Source: Escherichia coli | GTDB lineage: Bacteria > Pseudomonadota > Gammaproteobacteria > Enterobacterales > Enterobacteriaceae | Assembly: GCF_003018235.1 (NCBI RefSeq) | Contig: NZ_CP027437.1 | Length of the DNA: 64,000 nucleotides | Reading direction: 5' to 3' (one strand) | Shown: one piece after another, positions 20,432 through 29,528 of the stretch | Layout of the letters: each line of letters opens with the position of its first letter | Position numbering within the stretch: the first letter of the stretch is position 1 | Made by a program: the position numbers and the translations under genes | The notes under the pieces: model-generated | Database searches by the model: none | What the model was told of the DNA's origin: nothing | Seen by the model: the letters and a program-made list of their open reading frames with translations, nothing else

Positions 20432-21828
20432 AGTGGGTGCACATCATCGCCATCAATAGCGATTACGCCGTCACCTTCCAGCTTGTACAGCCAGCGCCGG
20501 AAATTTTTCATCTCATACCCCAGCTTTTTCATATCGTCGCGGAGAAGGGCGATAGTGCACGCCTCCCCGTGTGCTGTCCTCGTTCTGATGCACTGCCATA
20601 GCGCGGCGTGATTCTCCGTCTTGTTTCCGGCCTCCTCGATGCGCTCCAGTTCAACGGGTGGGCGCGGTTTATCCACAACCACCAGCGACGTGATTAACTC
20701 CCCGTCAGCGTCGGTAAAAAGCTCCACCACACGTAAATCGTATGCGGCCTCTTTCAGTTCCTCCGCGTCCTTCATTTTGGTGCAGGAGATAACCAGGGCT
20801 TCACAGTCCGCACCTTCACGGCGAATACGGTATTCAGCGTCCAGAGATGCACGAAATGCACTGGAACCACGCGCCCCTTTCGTCTCATCCTTGCCGGAAT
20901 GGTGAACCACCAGCACCGTGGCCCCTGTGCGTCGTTTCAGTTCGTCACATCCACGGATAAACGCCCCCATGTCACGGGAATCATTTTCATCATTGCCGCC
21001 AAAGCAACGCGCCAGCGTATCCAGAATAATCATGCGTACAGGTTTACCCGTTTCCCGCTCCACCTGGCTGGCTGCGATAACCATTTCATCAACATCAAGC
21101 GGGGCCGCCGGAAAAATGGGACGGTTTACCAGATACAGATTTTTCACCTGCTCACCGTGCACAACCTCCCAGGCTTTTACACGACGTGGAACGCCGATAC
21201 CGCCTTCACCAACCACATAGAGAACCGCACCATGTGCAACCCTGCGGCCTCCCCAGTAGCGACCTGTGGAAACGTGACACGCCCACGATCCGGCAAGGAA
21301 TGATTTATAGGAACCGCTCGCCCCGTATATGCTGCATAGCGATACCGCCGGAATAATTCCCTTAACCACGTAATCAAGTTGCGTGTCGTATCCGGCAGAA
21401 CCAATGCTCATCGGTAGTTTGGTTTTCCGCTGGTGGCTTTTTTCTTCCTCCTGCGCTTTACCGCGCTCCCGTTCCAGATATTCGCGCCAGTTCTCCCGCT
21501 TCTGGCTGTGCATCCCATCTGGGTAATAATTCGCATCCCGTACACCTGCTGCCGCCAGCTTTTGCGCTATGGCATTAATGCTCGATGGCTTGATATGGCC
21601 TGCCCTGTACAGACGGACGCAATAGCGGCCCTCGTCGATGATTCTCAGGTCTGGCAGTTCAGCCAGTTGATCATCAGCCAGCACAACGGGAGGCACATTA
21701 TCGCCAGCAAGTCGCCCGTCCTGCTCCTGCCACTGCTTCGCGTGTGCCCAGGCATCACTACCCGCAAAAATAATGACTTCTGTCATTTTGTCGTAAGGCT
21801 GTTTTCTTAAGTTCGGTGCGCTCTTCAT
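20428..21828 (-). CDS. Replication initiator/helicase, RepA-like RecA-fold ATPase (466 aa)
   Basis: Walker A GASGSYKS, Walker B MIILD, VLVVHHSGKDETKG motif typical of RepA/AAA_25 helicases; start overlaps upstream ORF stop. Confidence 0.7.
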   Translation of the reverse strand: MKSAPNLRKQPYDKMTEVIIFAGSDAWAHAKQWQEQDGRLAGDNVPPVVLADDQLAELPDLRIIDEGRYCVRLYRAGHIKPSSINAIAQKLAAAGVRDANYYPDGMHSQKRENWREYLERERGKAQEEEKSHQRKTKLPMSIGSAGYDTQLDYVVKGIIPAVSLCSIYGASGSYKSFLAGSWACHVSTGRYWGGRRVAHGAVLYVVGEGGIGVPRRVKAWEVVHGEQVKNLYLVNRPIFPAAPLDVDEMVIAASQVERETGKPVRMIILDTLARCFGGNDENDSRDMGAFIRGCDELKRRTGATVLVVHHSGKDETKGARGSSAFRASLDAEYRIRREGADCEALVISCTKMKDAEELKEAAYDLRVVELFTDADGELITSLVVVDKPRPPVELERIEEAGNKTENHAALWQCIRTRTAHGEACTIALLRDDMKKLGYEMKNFRRWLYKLEGDGVIAIDGDDVHPL

Positions 21829-22137: not shown

Positions 22138-22419
22138 TTATTCGTCGTTCTGAATAAAACGTTGTTCTCTTATTTCAGAAAGTATCCTGTAAACATTCTT
22201 ATCACTTACCACTTGATGATAATCATCATCCTCAATAAAACACATCAGCGCCTTATTACGGATATATATTTCTCTGGAAAGAAACTGTATCGCCGCGACT
22301 GCCCTTTCTTCTGTAATTCCGTTCATTGACTCACGTTCAATAATAATATTAAGTGCGGCGGATGCGTCTTCCAGTTCAATAAGGTAAGCAGCGAGGTTAT
22401 TTTTTATTCCATTAGACAT
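22138..22419 (-). CDS. Hypothetical acidic protein (93 aa)
   Basis: Operon position between Icd-like ORF and 98-aa ORF; family not recognised. Confidence 0.45.
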   Translation of the reverse strand: MSNGIKNNLAAYLIELEDASAALNIIIERESMNGITEERAVAAIQFLSREIYIRNKALMCFIEDDDYHQVVSDKNVYRILSEIREQRFIQNDE

Positions 22420-22615
22420 GGCTCACCCCCTGACAGATTTTTGCAGCGAATACAGCAACACAACCGGACGGGCAAAGGTTACGCGCTTCGCGTTCCGTCC
22501 AGGCGGTTACGTGGATGATTTGATGGTCTGACGCGCCAAAGGCAATAAAGCGCCAGGTGAATTTATTCAGGTTGTGCGAGTCCCGCCCTTGCGGGTGTGT
22601 GATATGATTTAACAT
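22412..22615 (-). CDS. Small protein (67 aa), possibly Icd-like (host cell division inhibitor family of P4-like elements)
   Basis: Only the C-terminal 67 codons of the 353-aa track ORF look coding; MLNHITHPQGRDSHNLNKFTWRFIAFGASDHQIIHVTAWTEREARNLCP; motif resemblance recalled, not searched. Confidence 0.45.
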   Translation of the reverse strand: MLNHITHPQGRDSHNLNKFTWRFIAFGASDHQIIHVTAWTEREARNLCPSGCVAVFAAKICQGVSHV

Positions 22616-22708
22616 AGCTACCTCGATACTATTGCTATCGTTGGTGGTTAGAAGCCTGTGGGTGTTAGCGGCACCTACGGGCTTCGCAGTTTCTGAACCT
22701 TGAACACT

Positions 22709-22794
22709 CAAGGTGTAAGACACAACATAAAACAACAGTGTCTTACACGTCAACCCTTTAAAATAGTTTTTTTTCGTGTATATTGTCTTACACC
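22709..22794. promoter_or_regulatory. Operator-like repeats: palindrome GGTGTAAGACAC / GTGTCTTACACG plus a third copy TGTCTTACACC overlapping a TATATT -10 element
   Basis: Three copies of an 11-12 bp motif in a divergent intergenic region directly upstream of a small plus-strand ORF. Confidence 0.6.
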
Positions 22795-22814
22795 AAAAAC
22801 ATGAGGGGTTAGAC

Positions 22815-23000
22815 ATGGCAACAGGTCCAAAGAATGCAAAATCACAATCTGTAACTGCACGTATTGCCCATGAAATTATTGAAGGCATGGAAAACGTGAA
22901 AGAAGATGGCGAAAGTACAGGGCAGTTTATAAGCGCAGCCATGCGTGGCGAGATCAAACGCCGCCAACGGAAAAAAACCAAAGAATCAGATAAGGAATAA
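22815..23000 (+). CDS. Small basic protein (61 aa), possible ribbon-helix-helix-type regulator
   Basis: Start moved to MATGPKN with GAGGGG RBS; only plus-strand gene in the island. Confidence 0.45.
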   Translation: MATGPKNAKSQSVTARIAHEIIEGMENVKEDGESTGQFISAAMRGEIKRRQRKKTKESDKE

Positions 23001-23003
23001 CTT

Positions 23004-23147
23004 ATGCAGCAAGTACTATACTGGCTTGGCTCTTTGTTTTTATTTGCTTTCCTCCTGGGAAATTGCATCAGCAATGAACACGTCAGTAATGAGCGTGTAT
23101 GCAGGAGTGATGAAAAAAAGATTCCACGCCTCATATACAATGATTGA
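23004..23147 (+). CDS. Small hydrophobic peptide (47 aa), predicted single membrane helix
   Basis: Below the 60-aa track cutoff; ATG 8 nt after AAGGA RBS that overlaps the upstream ORF stop; MQQVLYWLGSLFLFAFLLGNCISNEHVSNERVCRSDEKKIPRLIYND. Confidence 0.35.
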   Translation: MQQVLYWLGSLFLFAFLLGNCISNEHVSNERVCRSDEKKIPRLIYND

Positions 23148-23292
23148 TTAGCTCGTGCAGCACTAAAGCAACGCAAGGCCAAAGAGCAGGAATAGCCCAC
23201 CAGCAAGCCAGCGCACTGATCACATTGCCCACCAGCCGCAAATGTGGCATTGTTGGCTATGCTCATGCGTTGGGGATAACGTGTAGCTTGTG

Positions 23293-23325
23293 TCGAGGGG
23301 CCACCGTAGCGGGTGGCCTTTGTTT
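23293..23325 (+). terminator. Plus-strand intrinsic terminator downstream of the two-gene cassette
   Basis: Hairpin GGCCACCGTAGCGGGTGGCC followed by TTTGTTTT. Confidence 0.55.
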
Positions 23326-23420
23326 TGCCTGTTATCCGGCAATTGTGGCGCTTCGCCACACGGTTGATATAATTCCCCTGCACTGATCCATTTTTTTCGC
23401 AGCAGGTTAATTGTTCGCAA

Positions 23421-23449
23421 GGGCGCTCCGGCAACGGGGCGCTTTTTGT
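23421..23449 (+). terminator. Second plus-strand intrinsic terminator (possible end of a short non-coding transcript)
   Basis: Hairpin GCGCTCCGG-caac-GGGGCGC followed by T5; a TATAAT-like element lies at about 23365. Confidence 0.4.
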
Positions 23450-23477
23450 TATGTTCATCGCGTTACGCCTCACACCA

Positions 23478-23684
23478 TTACGCAGCCGTTCCGCGCGCTT
23501 CTTCCTCGCGCTCTTTCAGCCAGGCCAGCACTTCATCTTCATACCAGCCAACACGACGCAGACCGATTTTGAAGCCTTTCGGGAATTTTCCGGCGTTGAT
23601 CATGTCCTGTAGCGAACTGTCCGCCTTGATGCGAAGAATATTTTTTACTTCCTGACGGGTGAGTATTTTTCTGATTACTTCCAT
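23478..23684 (-). CDS. alpA: AlpA-family phage transcriptional regulator / excisionase-like (68 aa)
   Basis: LTRQEVKNILRIKADSSLQDMINAGKFPKGFKIGLRRVGWYEDEVLAWL is typical of AlpA/Vis-like HTH proteins. Confidence 0.8.
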   Translation of the reverse strand: MEVIRKILTRQEVKNILRIKADSSLQDMINAGKFPKGFKIGLRRVGWYEDEVLAWLKEREEEARGTAA

Positions 23685-23851
23685 CGTGTTTTACCTCATT
23701 AATCCGGCGTGTTCCGGTGATAAATACGGTAAAACAGGGAAGGGCGGGAAAAACAGTACCTACCGTTTTAAAACGGTACCCACTGTTTTTTATCTCGTTG
23801 ATTGTGCTTCTTTTTGCAAAAAATAGCGACCGCAAGGGGCCGCTATTGTGA

Positions 23852-24085
23852 TTACCGTCTCCACTTCTTAGGTCGCCCACCGCATTTAAGGCTGGTGGGC
23901 CTCAGCACCTTGTCGATGCTTTCAGCCAGATTTTTCGATACGCCACGTGAGCGCAAAAAACTGACTACCTCGTGTTTTGTGGGGGCTGTTGATTTGTCTT
24001 CCGGATCGTACGTTGACCAGAATTCACGGCTTACCAGTACAGCCAGTTCAAGCCCGTCACAAGTGCCATTGATGTTTGTTTGCAT
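23852..24085 (-). CDS. Hypothetical protein (77 aa) between integrase and alpA
   Basis: Basic C-terminus GGRPKKWRR; followed on minus strand by hairpin plus T-run. Confidence 0.4.
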   Translation of the reverse strand: MQTNINGTCDGLELAVLVSREFWSTYDPEDKSTAPTKHEVVSFLRSRGVSKNLAESIDKVLRPTSLKCGGRPKKWRR

Positions 24086-24189
24086 GTTGATGCTCTCTTC
24101 ATGTTTGGCGGCCTTTGGGGGTAACGAGATAATGCAACTATACGACGGTTTTACATGGTTTTCATCGTTTTTGCTGGTTTTGTGTACAG

Positions 24190-25431
24190 TTATACCGCAC
24201 GGATACCCCTTTTACCACCAGCAAGGGTAACGCCCGTTGCCGCTGCCTCAACAAATTCCCCCCACCAGCGCATCAGCACAATGCGTTTTTCCAGGTAGTT
24301 ACTGCGGTTGTAGGCTCTCCTTACTTCGTTGGTGTCCACGTGGGCCAGTGCGGCCTCGATTACGTCCGGCTCGAATCCTTCCTCGTTTGCTGCTGTGCTG
24401 AATATGGCGCGTAATCCATGAGACACCAGCACGCCAGCGAACCCCATGCGCCGTAATGCTGCGTTGGCGGTCTGGCTGTTCATCGGCTGGCGTGGGTCTT
24501 TCAGGCTCGGGAAAACATGCTCGCGGTGGTGGCTGATTGGTTTCATGGCCTCCAGCACTGCCATAGCCTGACCGCAAAGCGGGATAACGTGATCACGTCG
24601 CATCTTCATACGTCCGGCTGGTATCGTCCATTGTTGCTCGTCCAGGTCGATTTCTTCCCAGCGTGCTGACGATGCCTCAACAGGACGGGTTACGGTAAGT
24701 AGCTGCCACTCAATCAGTAGTCTTGTCTGCCGTTCTGTTGCCGATACGGATAAAGCCCGCATAAGCTCCGGTAGCTGCTCGGGGCGGATTGTTGGCATAT
24801 GTTTTTTTACTGGGGTGGGGAAGGCCTTGCGCACGTTTGTAGCCGGATTGGTATCAATCATCCCGCTGTTGGCGGCGTAATCCATAACTTCATTGATGCG
24901 CTGTAAAACCCGCTTGAGCGTTTCCAGGTTGCCGCGTTCCTTGATGGGGGTGAGTATCTCCACGAACCTGCGGGCGGTGAGGGTGTCTACTGGCGTGTCA
25001 CCGATGAACGGGAATACATATTTCTCCAGCGATCTCCATATGTCTTTAATTGTGTTGGGTGCAAGATTCTGGCTGATTTTCACCTGGTACCATGCCGCTG
25101 CTACATTTTCGAACGTGTTGCCCTGTCTCCGTTCCTCTGCTTCGCGTTTTCGTCGCTCGTGTTCCTGTGGGTCGGTGCCGGAAGAAATTAACGTCCTGTA
25201 CTCGCTACGGCGTTTTCTGGCATCAGCCAAGGAAACATCATCAAGCGATCCAAAACTCAGCAATATTCTTTTTTTGTCCAATGGGCGGTAGTAGGAAAAT
25301 CGCCAGAGTTTTGATCCAGACGGTTTGACCAGGAGAAAAAGCCCTCCGCCGTCCTGTAGGGTGTACTCCTTTTCCGCTGGTCTGGCTGCTTTGATCTGCA
25401 CTGTGGTTAATGGGGTTGTTTTTCTCGCCAT
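24190..25431 (-). CDS. Tyrosine integrase, P4/CP4-57 IntA-like (about 413 aa)
   Basis: N-terminal arm-binding-type region (KEYTLQDGGGLFLLVKPSGSKLWRFSY), C-terminal catalytic region (HGLRAIFST, ALAHV); adjacent to tRNA 3' end. Confidence 0.9.
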   Translation of the reverse strand: MARKTTPLTTVQIKAARPAEKEYTLQDGGGLFLLVKPSGSKLWRFSYYRPLDKKRILLSFGSLDDVSLADARKRRSEYRTLISSGTDPQEHERRKREAEERRQGNTFENVAAAWYQVKISQNLAPNTIKDIWRSLEKYVFPFIGDTPVDTLTARRFVEILTPIKERGNLETLKRVLQRINEVMDYAANSGMIDTNPATNVRKAFPTPVKKHMPTIRPEQLPELMRALSVSATERQTRLLIEWQLLTVTRPVEASSARWEEIDLDEQQWTIPAGRMKMRRDHVIPLCGQAMAVLEAMKPISHHREHVFPSLKDPRQPMNSQTANAALRRMGFAGVLVSHGLRAIFSTAANEEGFEPDVIEAALAHVDTNEVRRAYNRSNYLEKRIVLMRWWGEFVEAAATGVTLAGGKRGIRAV

Positions 25432-25462
25432 ATGTCTATGATTCCACACGAAAAAATGGGGT

Positions 25463-25520
25463 TTTAGTTATACGGCTTTAGTTATACGTCAGCCCGTATA
25501 ACTAAACGTATAACTAAAAA
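25463..25520. repeat. Cluster of four CGTATAACTAAA 12-mers (two inverted, two direct) upstream of the integrase gene; candidate integrase arm-type binding sites / attR
   Basis: TTTAGTTATACGG x2 then CCGTATAACTAAACGTATAACTAAAAA; direct part matches 15392-15417. Confidence 0.6.
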
Positions 25521-25649: not shown

Positions 25650-25726
25650 TGGTCGGCACGAGAGGATTTGAACCTCCGACCCCCGACACCCCATGACGGT
25701 GCGCTACCAGGCTGCGCTACGTGCCG
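25650..25726 (-). tRNA. proL: tRNA-Pro (77 nt, ends CCA)
   Basis: Reverse complement reads CGGCACGTAGCGCAGCCTGGTAGCGCACCGTCATGGGGTGTCGGGGGTCGGAGGTTCAAATCCTCTCGTGCCGACCA. Confidence 0.95.

Positions 25727-29135: not shown

Positions 29136-29528
<393 letters not shown>

What the first reader, a model, noticed from the sequence alone, without database searches (positions are those of the whole stretch)
23852..24085. Small basic ORF with its own terminator in the integrase-alpA intergenic slot
A 77-aa ORF with a basic C-terminus (GGRPKKWRR) lies between the P4-type integrase and alpA and is followed by a hairpin plus T-run. In P4-like and PICI-like elements the neighbourhood of the integrase is a frequent site of variable cargo.
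Basis: inference. Interest (0 to 1): 0.35.

Follow-up and report, generated by a model that had tools for sequence, protein, structure and literature searches.

The report
Unannotated conserved gene between integrase and alpA
The small ORF is a real gene with its own promoter and terminator. It encodes a stand-alone copy of a widespread but unnamed protein domain that sits between the integrase and alpA genes of phage satellites in many Proteobacteria, so it looks like an unstudied part of the satellite's control module rather than interchangeable cargo.

Summary
A 77-aa ORF (23852-24085, minus strand) lies between a P4-type integrase and alpA in a roughly 10-kb PICI-like satellite at tRNA-Pro (proL) of E. 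coli, and a strong hairpin plus T-run follows it. It is a real gene: only its frame is open in 28 distinct alleles, and dN/dS is 0.05-0.13. A conserved promoter sits directly after the int stop codon. Two allele groups carry unrelated terminator stems at the same position. 370 of 5426 complete E. coli genomes carry a homologue, always annotated 'hypothetical'. An exhaustive profile search shows ORF77 is the stand-alone form of a C-terminal domain (FWSTYDP-D-TAP ... ILRP ... GRPKK) found in 190-380-aa proteins (672 representative hits). Pfam, NCBIfam, PHROGs, PADLOC and the PDB give no significant match. In distant Proteobacteria these proteins occupy the same place: P4-type int, then X, then alpA. 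The 'variable cargo' reading is therefore not supported. However, two studied PICIs (EcCICFT073, EcCIMP1) lack the gene, and in distant relatives restriction-modification cargo sits upstream of X. The function is inferred, not shown: most likely a small helical, basic-tailed accessory regulator of the int/alpA switch.

The parts
23852..24085 (-). ORF77 coding sequence (77 aa). Residues 1-10 are a variable N-terminus, 11-62 a conserved three-helix core, and 63-77 a basic tail (RPTSLKCGGRPKKWRR).
   Evidence: for the ORF and the RefSeq CDS. for purifying selection and the single open frame. for the AF2 model (pLDDT 78.6 and 83.6; helices 10-22, 37-46, 51-61). for charge: core 0, tail +6.
23816..23847 (-). 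Intrinsic terminator of ORF77: a 10-bp stem with a 6-nt loop, followed by U6. It starts 5 nt after the stop codon.
   Evidence: I6; -14.3 kcal/mol, z -3.3. Allele group B has an unrelated stem (AAGCGGCA/GAAA/TGCCGCUU + U7; -15.0 kcal/mol, z -3.9) at the same position.
24137..24165 (-). Candidate sigma-70 promoter of ORF77: ATGAAA, 17-nt spacer, TATAGT. Most relatives have TATAAT.
   Evidence: for the scan. One search shows that the block from the int stop codon to the -10 hexamer is conserved in all 24 distinct upstream sequences, and that the sequence becomes variable immediately after the -10.
24148..24181 (-). Three A-tract repeats (AAAAC...) phased at 9-10 nt, spanning the -35 and upstream region. 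This suggests a bent upstream element or a protein-binding array. One unit at 24145-24152 reads AAAACCGT.
   Evidence: (D1).
24056..24136 (-). Variable 5'UTR and first ~10 codons. This is the mosaic breakpoint between the int-linked and alpA-linked sequence.
   Evidence: many E. coli hits keep 94-97% identity through alpA and ORF77 and stop at query positions 629-661 (window 24028-24060). Searches show different start codons and N-termini.
23749..23790 (.). A 42-bp dyad with four AAAACNGT half-sites, lying between the ORF77 terminator and alpA. It is a candidate operator of the alpA promoter; the protein that binds it is unknown.
   Evidence: 4 of the window's 20 matches cluster here; I1, 21-nt arms, 86% complementary; conserved in both allele groups. 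A related motif, AAACAGTG, occurs three times in the Serratia X-alpA gap.
23478..23684 (-). alpA (68 aa), the satellite's AlpA-family regulator and the downstream neighbour of ORF77.
   Evidence: PF05930; phrog_66, excisionase/transcriptional regulator.
24190..25449 (-). P4-type tyrosine integrase, the upstream neighbour. RefSeq starts the CDS at the position equivalent to 25431.
25650..25726 (-). tRNA-Pro(GGG) (proL), the integration target that marks the right end of the island.

Best explanation
ORF77 is a genuine protein-coding gene transcribed as its own unit, with a conserved promoter directly after the int stop codon and an intrinsic terminator directly after its own stop codon. It is the natural domain-only form of an unannotated, widespread protein family that I call X here. 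In the longer members (190-380 aa) this conserved ~60-aa domain sits at the extreme C-terminus behind a variable N-terminal region. Across Gamma- and Betaproteobacteria, X is a syntenic partner of P4-type integrases and AlpA, in the order int, X, alpA. I infer that it is an accessory component of the satellite's integration and regulation module, not cargo. The most likely mechanism is that ORF77 is made while the island is integrated. Its three-helix, HTH-like core and its Gly-Arg-Pro-Lys-Lys tail would then contact DNA in the int-alpA control region. Candidate sites are the four AAAACNGT half-sites upstream of alpA and the AAAAC repeats in its own promoter. There it would tune alpA or int expression, or the DNA architecture. 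The terminator would keep its transcription from reading into alpA, which must stay off until a helper phage arrives. Shown: the gene is real, the promoter-like and terminator elements are conserved, and the family and its synteny exist. Inferred: expression, DNA binding, the target sites and the regulatory effect.
For: Gene reality: a single open frame in 28 alleles and pN/pS of 0.05-0.13. 370 of 5426 complete E. coli genomes carry a homologue.

Own transcription unit: the conserved block ending in CGTATAAT after the int stop, and two unrelated but equally strong terminator hairpins at the same site in the two allele groups.

Family: the profile search gave 672 representatives at E<=1e-3, with the domain at the C-terminal end of 190-380-aa proteins. 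W23, D27, T33, P35, L44, G48, A54 and R62 are nearly invariant.

Synteny: int lies immediately upstream and an AlpA-like gene about 160 nt downstream in all 54 E. coli-type satellite contigs. Among 15 distinct non-E. coli elements, an AlpA-like gene follows X within about 210 nt in 10, and a P4-type int precedes it within about 520 nt in 9. Several of the remaining contigs end at X.

Linkage to alpA: E. coli mosaics break at the 5' end of ORF77, so the core travels with alpA while the integrase and att site change.

Clustered dyad sites lie between ORF77 and alpA, and a related unit lies in the ORF77 promoter.

Against: The conserved core is on average slightly acidic (mean net charge -1). Its most conserved stretch is a loop (YDPxDxxTAP), which suits a protein-protein surface as well as a DNA-binding one.

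The repeated DNA motifs in the X-alpA gap differ between clades (AAAACNGT or AAACAGTG versus GTCCGCGCC) although the X domain is highly conserved. This argues that those sites may belong to the more divergent AlpA, which is known to activate its own promoter (PMC6092414).

Two functional PICIs, EcCICFT073 and EcCIMP1, have no X homologue in the slot. EcCIMP1 has Int and AlpA types similar to those of the X-carrying Serratia element. X is therefore dispensable for the basic excision, induction and transfer cycle.

A terminator after X was not clearly found in distant relatives.
Confidence: 0.45

Rival explanations
1. X/ORF77 is a protein-protein adaptor rather than a DNA-binding protein. Its conserved acidic loop and helices would dock onto a conserved partner, such as the P4-type integrase, AlpA, or a host or helper-phage protein. 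This would modulate the direction of recombination or the timing of induction. The short basic tail would give at most non-specific DNA affinity.
For: The strictest conservation lies in a surface loop (W23, D27, T33, P35) and at R62, and the core is neutral to acidic. The only gene types consistently next to X across phyla are Int and AlpA. The DNA motifs in the gap change between clades while the X domain does not. The N-terminal regions of the long forms are variable, as expected if a common C-terminal docking module is attached to different functional heads.
Against: No partner has been identified. The tail motif G-[GPR]-R-[PK]-K is conserved at the very C-terminus and resembles a minor-groove-binding arm. 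The helix-Gly-helix geometry is HTH-like. Elements with similar Int and AlpA work without X.
Confidence: 0.3
2. The int-alpA slot is a cargo hotspot, and ORF77 is an interchangeable accessory gene (for example defence, host modulation or a toxin-like function) unrelated to the satellite's own life cycle.
For: Slot content differs between PICI lineages. EcCICFT073 and EcCIMP1 carry other, non-homologous sequence there. PMC11773190 treats EcCIMP1_002 in this slot as a possible accessory gene. Restriction-modification genes lie next to X in two distant elements. ORF77 is a self-contained promoter-gene-terminator cassette.
Against: The same gene family holds the same position next to alpA from E. 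coli to Halomonadaceae, Oceanospirillaceae and Zoogloeaceae. Within E. coli it stays put while the late, replication and integrase modules are exchanged. There is no PADLOC, PHROG or Pfam hit. The restriction-modification cargo is inserted upstream of X, not in place of it.
Confidence: 0.07
3. ORF77 is a decaying remnant of a longer X gene, or a conserved non-coding regulatory stretch (promoter or attP-like region) that happens to stay open.
For: It lacks the N-terminal ~130-300 residues present in most family members. Its first ~10 codons and its start codon vary between alleles. Frameshifted and fused copies exist (P0006, P0016-P0018, L071).
Against: There is strong purifying selection on the protein frame at high synonymous divergence. 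The frame is intact in 28 alleles, with conservative replacements. The promoter and terminator are maintained, and the terminator has even been replaced by a different stem.
Confidence: 0.03

Closest known systems
AlpA / Vis / HTH_17 excisionase-type regulators (Pfam PF05930, PF12728)
   Same: A small, partly basic protein encoded next to a P4-type integrase in satellites and islands. It is co-oriented with int and plausibly acts on the same control region.
   Different: There is no sequence relationship: hmmscan gives no hit and hhalign of the X profile against an AlpA profile gives probability 4%. The AF2 model is three helices without the beta-wing of this family. A separate bona fide alpA lies 167 nt downstream.
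'Integration zone' of Gram-negative PICIs (int + alpA; PMC10111431, PMC6092414)
   Same: The element is a PICI-like satellite with unidirectional int, alpA, a RepA/primase-type replication gene and captured capsid genes. ORF77 lies inside this zone.
   Different: The published description lists only Int and AlpA/HTH_17 in this zone. A third conserved gene family is not mentioned in the papers I read. The model elements EcCICFT073 and EcCIMP1 lack it.
AT-hook and other minor-groove-binding basic arms (core Arg-Gly-Arg-Pro; for example the Gly-Arg-Pro-Arg arm of Hin recombinase). This comparison is from my own knowledge.
   Same: The C-terminal GGRPKKWRR contains the Gly-Arg-Pro core flanked by Lys and Arg. 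The family consensus is G-[GPR]-R-[PK]-K at the extreme C-terminus.
   Different: The first Arg of the canonical R-G-R-P is missing. Many family members have GPRK instead. No binding data exist.
RecX three-helix repeats and IclR-type winged-helix domains (best structural neighbours)
   Different: The scores are in the range where small helical bundles match by chance. Identity is 13-21%, rmsd is up to 7 A, and nothing is significant by sequence.
EcCIMP1_002 (small ORF between int and alpA of EcCIMP1, mis-annotated in databases as 'UvrB'; PMC11773190)
   Same: It occupies the same slot, is of similar small size, and has unknown function.
   Different: It is not homologous. tblastn of ORF77 and of the Serratia long form against the EcCIMP1 gap finds nothing at E<=10.

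Membership tests
AlpA / HTH_17 (MerR-like excisionase) family | Significant match to PF05930 or PF12728, or to a profile of AlpA proteins | tested here: not met
   No hit for ORF77 in Pfam, NCBIfam or PHROGs. hhalign of the X profile against an AlpA profile gives probability 4%. BLASTP of ORF77 against the neighbouring AlpA gives E=0.55.
AlpA / HTH_17 (MerR-like excisionase) family | Winged-helix fold (HTH followed by a beta-hairpin wing) | tested here: not met
   The AF2 models show three helices plus a disordered tail. The only strand-like element is a two-residue bridge.
Gram-negative PICI (element level) | Roughly 10-15-kb island at a specific att site, with co-oriented int, alpA and pri/rep genes plus phage-derived packaging or capsid genes and no full phage gene set | tested here: met
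   int, alpA, a DUF4222 gene, a RepA-type AAA_25 helicase, PerC and a ClpP-protease/major-capsid fusion lie between yejO and tRNA-Pro. Related islands carry terS, a major capsid protein and a decoration protein.
Gram-negative PICI (element level) | Helper-phage-dependent induction and transfer | not testable with these tools
   This needs induction and transduction experiments.
P4-like satellite | P4 core genes (psu, delta, sid, alpha primase, epsilon; CI RNA) | tested here: not met
   None are annotated in the identical island of SCU-111. There is no C4/isrK-type Rfam hit in the window. ORF77 has no tblastn hit in 50,697 phage records.
Anti-phage defence or cargo gene of a satellite hotspot | Match to a known defence family, and replacement by unrelated genes among close relatives | tested here: not met
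   PADLOC gives no hit for ORF77 or for 9 long homologues. The gene is retained in all 54 related satellite contigs and in the islands examined.
Rho-independent terminator | GC-rich stem-loop directly followed by a U-run, downstream of a stop codon | tested here: met
   A 10-bp stem, -14.3 kcal/mol, U6, 5 nt after the stop. A functional counterpart with a different sequence is present in allele group B. Termination itself was not measured.
Helix-turn-helix DNA-binding domain | Significant structural or sequence match to an HTH family, and DNA binding | tested here: inconclusive
AT-hook | R-G-R-P core flanked by basic residues | tested here: inconclusive
   The sequence is G-G-R-P-K-K-W-R-R, so the GRP core and the basic flank are present but the leading Arg is absent. 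The family consensus is G-[GPR]-R-[PK]-K.

The most novel reading that the evidence does not exclude
X is the missing quiescence or sensing component of Gram-negative PICI-type satellites. Its conserved C-terminal domain would bind the control region upstream of alpA, and its own promoter, and hold the alpA switch off or poised. The variable N-terminal domains of the long forms would sense helper-phage proteins. The E. coli 77-aa form would be a sensor-less version displaced by a helper-encoded factor. That would give Gram-negative satellites a counterpart of the Stl-type repressor logic of Gram-positive PICIs, built from an entirely new protein family.
Probability: 0.12. Interest if true: 0.8.

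Novelty: new variant of a known kind. Interest (0 to 1): 0.5.

Why it matters
Gram-negative PICIs are said to be controlled by AlpA alone. Whether they have a repressor, and how helper phages switch alpA on, were left open in the founding paper (PMC6092414). This work identifies a third, widely conserved and completely unannotated gene family wedged between int and alpA. It is present in about 7% of complete E. coli genomes, including Nissle 1917 and ATCC 25922, and in satellites or islands of many Proteobacteria. That makes it a concrete, easily testable candidate for a role in that switch or in integrase directionality. It also defines a domain family that merits a database entry, and it could be tested as an extra marker when annotating P4-integrase/AlpA islands. 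If it turns out to have no effect on the satellite cycle, it remains an ordinary conserved hypothetical gene.

Tried and rejected
1. ORF77 as a diverged AlpA/Xis paralogue. This was prompted by the ...P-x-x-K-x-G-x-R-x-x-W resemblance and by the ORF77::AlpA fusion protein P0018. I rejected it: BLASTP gives E=0.55 and hhalign gives probability 4%. P0018 is simply a deletion joining the two genes.

2. The N-terminal domain of the long forms (HWKxVxEFTxEQAALLLAGIDP...) as an HTH_17-like domain. hhalign gives probability 0.2%, and there is no Pfam or PDB hit.

3. PDB sequence-profile hits to designed ankyrin repeats (E about 1e-4). These are an artefact of summing weak matches of 'kEVVxfLxsrGA' over repeats, and no single stretch is significant. 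The same applies to the 2552-aa and 663-aa multi-stretch hits P0019 and P0100.

4. Foldseek against the PDB and BFVD found nothing below E about 0.5. The afdb50 library was unavailable.

5. The word-indexed protein search found only E. coli relatives and no names. Cluster look-ups returned only 'hypothetical protein', plus one 'predicted GNAT acetyltransferase' label that has no Pfam support.

6. The genome-contig scan with the broad alignment failed because it had no conserved 7-mer. The narrower alignment found only 3 loci.

7. EcCIMP1_002 as a homologue: rejected.

8. A terminator after X as a family-wide feature: not supported outside E. coli.

9. Literature searches for the accessions and for the motif returned nothing.

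10. A TGT-N12-ACA Ogr/Delta-type site upstream of alpA, considered from my own knowledge of P2/P4 late promoters. The dyad here has a different geometry, so I did not pursue it.

Full report
WHAT IS THERE

The window is E. coli chromosome: yejM, yejL, yejK and rplY lie to the right, and the best match is strain SCU-111 at 99.6% identity. Between the yejO pseudogene and tRNA-Pro(GGG) (25650-25726, minus strand) lies a roughly 10-kb island read on the minus strand. In order it carries:
- a P4-type integrase (24190-25449; Arm-DNA-bind_3, Phage_int_M, Phage_integrase)
- the 77-aa ORF (23852-24085)
- alpA (23478-23684; PF05930)
- an Icd-like gene and a DUF4222 gene
- a RepA-type AAA_25 helicase
- a second integrase-like gene and PerC
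- a ClpP-protease/major-capsid fusion

This is the layout of a Gram-negative PICI-type phage satellite as described in PMC6092414 and PMC10111431. It is not a P4-like element: no P4 core genes are annotated, and Rfam finds no CI-type RNA.

The ORF, its C-terminus (...KCGGRPKKWRR) and its position are as stated. RefSeq annotates the same CDS as a hypothetical protein. Five nucleotides after the stop codon, a 10-bp stem with a 6-nt loop is followed by six U. It folds at -14.3 kcal/mol with z = -3.3, and 0 of 200 shuffles fold as well. The simple terminator scan had missed it.

IT IS A REAL GENE

I collected 54 related satellite contigs from IMG/VR and several E. coli islands. Among 28 distinct alleles, only the ORF77 frame is free of stops.
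- Within allele group A, pN/pS = 0.05.
- Within allele group B, pN/pS = 0.13.
- Between the groups, synonymous sites are saturated (pS 0.78) while pN is 0.17.

Replacements are conservative (K/R, S/T, I/V). A homologue is present in 370 of 5426 complete E. coli genomes, including Nissle 1917, ATCC 25922 and several O55, O111 and O157-type strains. It is always annotated 'hypothetical protein'.

IT IS ITS OWN TRANSCRIPTION UNIT (INFERRED FROM CONSERVATION)

The 24 distinct upstream sequences were aligned. The block from the int stop codon to a -10 hexamer is highly conserved. The hexamer is TATAAT in most relatives and TATAGT in the window (24137-24142). The -35-like ATGAAA lies at 24160-24165 with a 17-nt spacer. 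Three AAAAC repeats phased at 9-10 nt lie at 24148-24181.

Immediately after the -10 hexamer, the sequences become unalignable between sub-lineages. Start codons and the first ~10 residues also differ.

Downstream, the two allele groups carry completely different terminator stems at the same place: AAUAGCGGCC/.../GGUCGCUAUU + U6, versus AAGCGGCA/GAAA/UGCCGCUU + U7. Both are strong, at -14.3 and -15.0 kcal/mol with z of -3.3 and -3.9. Replacing one hairpin with another of equal strength is good evidence that termination here is selected. Its plausible purpose is to insulate alpA, the master activator whose expression must await a helper phage (PMC6092414, PMC11773190).

After the terminator comes a 42-bp dyad with four AAAACNGT half-sites (23749-23790). 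It is conserved in both allele groups. One further AAAACCGT lies in the ORF77 promoter spacer.

WHAT THE PROTEIN IS

ORF77 has no hit in Pfam, NCBIfam, PHROGs or PADLOC. The word-indexed search found only E. coli relatives. The exhaustive HMMER profile search found 672 representatives at E<=1e-3. The match lies almost always at the extreme C-terminus of 190-380-aa proteins.

The family consensus is ...L-x-x-L-x-x-A-x-x-x-F-W-S-T-Y-D-P-x-D-x-x-T-A-P-T-x-x-x-V-x-x-W-L-x-x-x-G-V-S-x-x-x-A-x-x-M/I-A/D-x-I-L-R-P/A-x-x-L-x-x-G-x-R-P/K-K. W23, D27, T33, P35, L44, G48, A54 and R62 are nearly invariant.

None of 20 long members has a significant Pfam or NCBIfam hit, and PHROGs and PADLOC are also silent. 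All source names are 'hypothetical protein'.

One subgroup of long forms shares a conserved N-terminal domain (HWKxVxEFTxEQAALLLAGIDP...RWK...AIRRG...TIITR..L..W) that is equally unannotated. Other subgroups have different N-termini. The E. coli protein is therefore a natural domain-only version, and its strong selection shows that the domain works on its own.

AF2 with the 64-sequence alignment gives pLDDT 83.6. The model has helices at 10-22, 37-46 and 51-61, a tight conserved loop between the first two helices, and a disordered basic tail.

CONTEXT ELSEWHERE: THE KEY RESULT

In every E. coli-type satellite contig, int is immediately upstream of X and an AlpA-like gene lies about 160 nt downstream.

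For distant homologues I could examine 15 independent elements. They come from Serratia, Vreelandella, Sedimenticola, Oceanospirillaceae and Zoogloeaceae, other gammaproteobacterial MAGs, and metagenomes. An AlpA-like gene follows X within about 210 nt in 10 of them. A P4-type integrase precedes X within about 520 nt in 9. Several of the remaining contigs end at X.

Downstream genes are the primases and helicases typical of satellites: DnaB/AAA_25, Toprim_3 with DUF5906, DUF3987 and DUF3631. In two elements a restriction-modification system (MmeI-type, type III) lies just upstream of X.

Within E. coli, many islands share alpA and ORF77 at 94-97% identity and lose similarity exactly at the 5' end of ORF77. 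Beyond that point a different integrase allele follows, and in one case a different att site next to icd. So X travels with alpA, and the recombination or cargo junction lies between int and X.

Not all PICIs have X. EcCICFT073 (a 365-nt int-alpA gap with no ORF on the coding strand) and EcCIMP1 (427 nt) have no homologue. Both are experimentally functional satellites (PMC6092414, PMC11773190). The small EcCIMP1_002 discussed in PMC11773190, mis-annotated in databases as 'UvrB', is unrelated.

HOW IT MOST LIKELY WORKS

Shown: a selected small protein; a conserved promoter-like element and a terminator; a conserved domain family; and tight synteny with int and especially alpA.

Inferred: it is an accessory part of the integration and regulation module. 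I favour (about 0.45) a nucleic-acid-binding regulator or architectural factor. The reasons are the helix-Gly-helix geometry, the conserved terminal G-x-R-P/K-K arm, the overall charge of +5, the clustered dyad sites beside it, and a related site in its own promoter.

A pure protein-protein adaptor acting on Int, AlpA or a phage or host factor is nearly as good (about 0.3). The core is neutral to acidic, the best-conserved element is a loop, and the DNA repeats in the X-alpA gap differ between clades while X does not. Those repeats may well be AlpA's own sites.

Because X-less relatives complete the PICI cycle, X is a modulator rather than an essential recombination or induction factor. Cargo or defence (about 0.07) and remnant or non-coding (about 0.03) readings are poorly supported.

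COMPARISON WITH WHAT IS KNOWN

The element is a Gram-negative PICI-type satellite by gene content. ORF77 is not an AlpA/Vis/HTH_17 member: this was tested and not met. It is not a known defence protein, not in PHROGs, and not found in 50,697 phage records.

The published four-zone scheme lists only Int and AlpA/HTH_17 in the integration zone (PMC10111431). I found no paper that mentions this family.

I therefore rate it a new variant of a known kind: a small accessory protein of an integrase/RDF module, built on an undescribed domain family. It is not categorically new, since no new mechanism has been demonstrated.

VERDICT

The 'variable cargo' interpretation is largely wrong. The find is a conserved, unannotated third gene of the int-alpA module. 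Interest is moderate (0.5). It is cheap to test in well-known strains and bears on the open question of how alpA is controlled, but its function remains inferential.

Noticed in passing
window 23749-23790: A 42-bp dyad made of four AAAACNGT half-sites lies between the ORF77 terminator and alpA. It is conserved in both E. coli allele groups. The Serratia relative has AAACAGTG three times in the equivalent gap, and another clade has GTCCGCGCC repeats. It is a candidate operator of the alpA promoter, and the protein that binds it is unknown.
   Followed up: partly
window 24137-24189; L073 7800-7900: The sequence directly after the int stop codon (phased AAAAC repeats followed by CCATCGTATAAT) is conserved across satellites. 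EcCICFT073, which lacks ORF77, has an analogous array of phased RAACAAC repeats followed by CCATCGTAATAAC. The -10-like CGTATAAT also resembles the CGTATAAC repeats at the island ends, so it might be an Int arm-type site as well as, or instead of, a promoter element.
   Followed up: partly
window 15392-15417, 25460-25487, 25494-25519: CCGTATAAC(C/T)AAACGTATAACTAAAA occurs near both island ends, and GGYTTTAGTTATAC occurs twice next to int. These are probably integrase arm-type binding sites that mark the attL and attR regions. The core att repeat itself was not located.
   Followed up: no
window 20238-20429: Three copies of a 24-nt unit (CCTCACTTTTACTCCTCACTTTTT) are spaced 83-85 nt apart, immediately downstream of the RepA-type helicase gene (20428-21828, minus strand). 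They look like iterons of the satellite's replication origin.
   Followed up: no
window 16054-16142 and 18603-18690: A segment of about 90 nt is duplicated at 84-85% identity, 2.55 kb apart, upstream of two minus-strand gene blocks in the late zone. These may be twin regulated promoters.
   Followed up: no
window 16170-18065 and 18981-19994: The island carries a 631-aa ClpP-like prohead protease/major capsid fusion and a second, shorter (337-aa) integrase-like gene in its late zone. Sister islands at the same proL site instead carry terS, a major capsid protein and a decoration protein, or ProQ/FinO, SSB and DUF927 genes. The late zone is highly mosaic.
   Followed up: partly
protein P0018 (record labelled Cooperia oncophora): A 90-aa 'AlpA family' protein in a nematode assembly is a deletion fusion of ORF77 residues 1-41 to the C-terminal half of AlpA. 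It presumably comes from E. coli contamination carrying a deleted island.
   Followed up: partly
L078 1171-4629; L005 1146-5755: In two distant relatives a restriction-modification system (MmeI-type in one, type III methylase plus helicase in the other) lies immediately upstream of the X gene. This suggests that the actual cargo insertion point of these islands is between int and X.
   Followed up: partly
L012 5542-6252: The 83-aa 'short' homologue P0032 is probably a mis-called long form. The frame is open for 236 codons and encodes an N-terminal domain resembling the HWK...EQAALLLAG type. Other short database members may likewise be truncated gene calls.
   Followed up: partly
window 22412-23473 (minus strand) and 22776-23147 (plus strand): Between alpA and the replication genes lies a divergently oriented YlcI/YnfO-family gene (phrog_949). 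A long 353-aa minus-strand ORF overlaps it, and RefSeq annotates only the last part of that ORF as an Icd-like protein. This is the P4 eta/kil-like 'Bro zone' and was not analysed.
   Followed up: no
window 29442-29467: An Rfam L25 ribosomal-protein leader lies upstream of rplY. This is ordinary chromosomal context.
   Followed up: no
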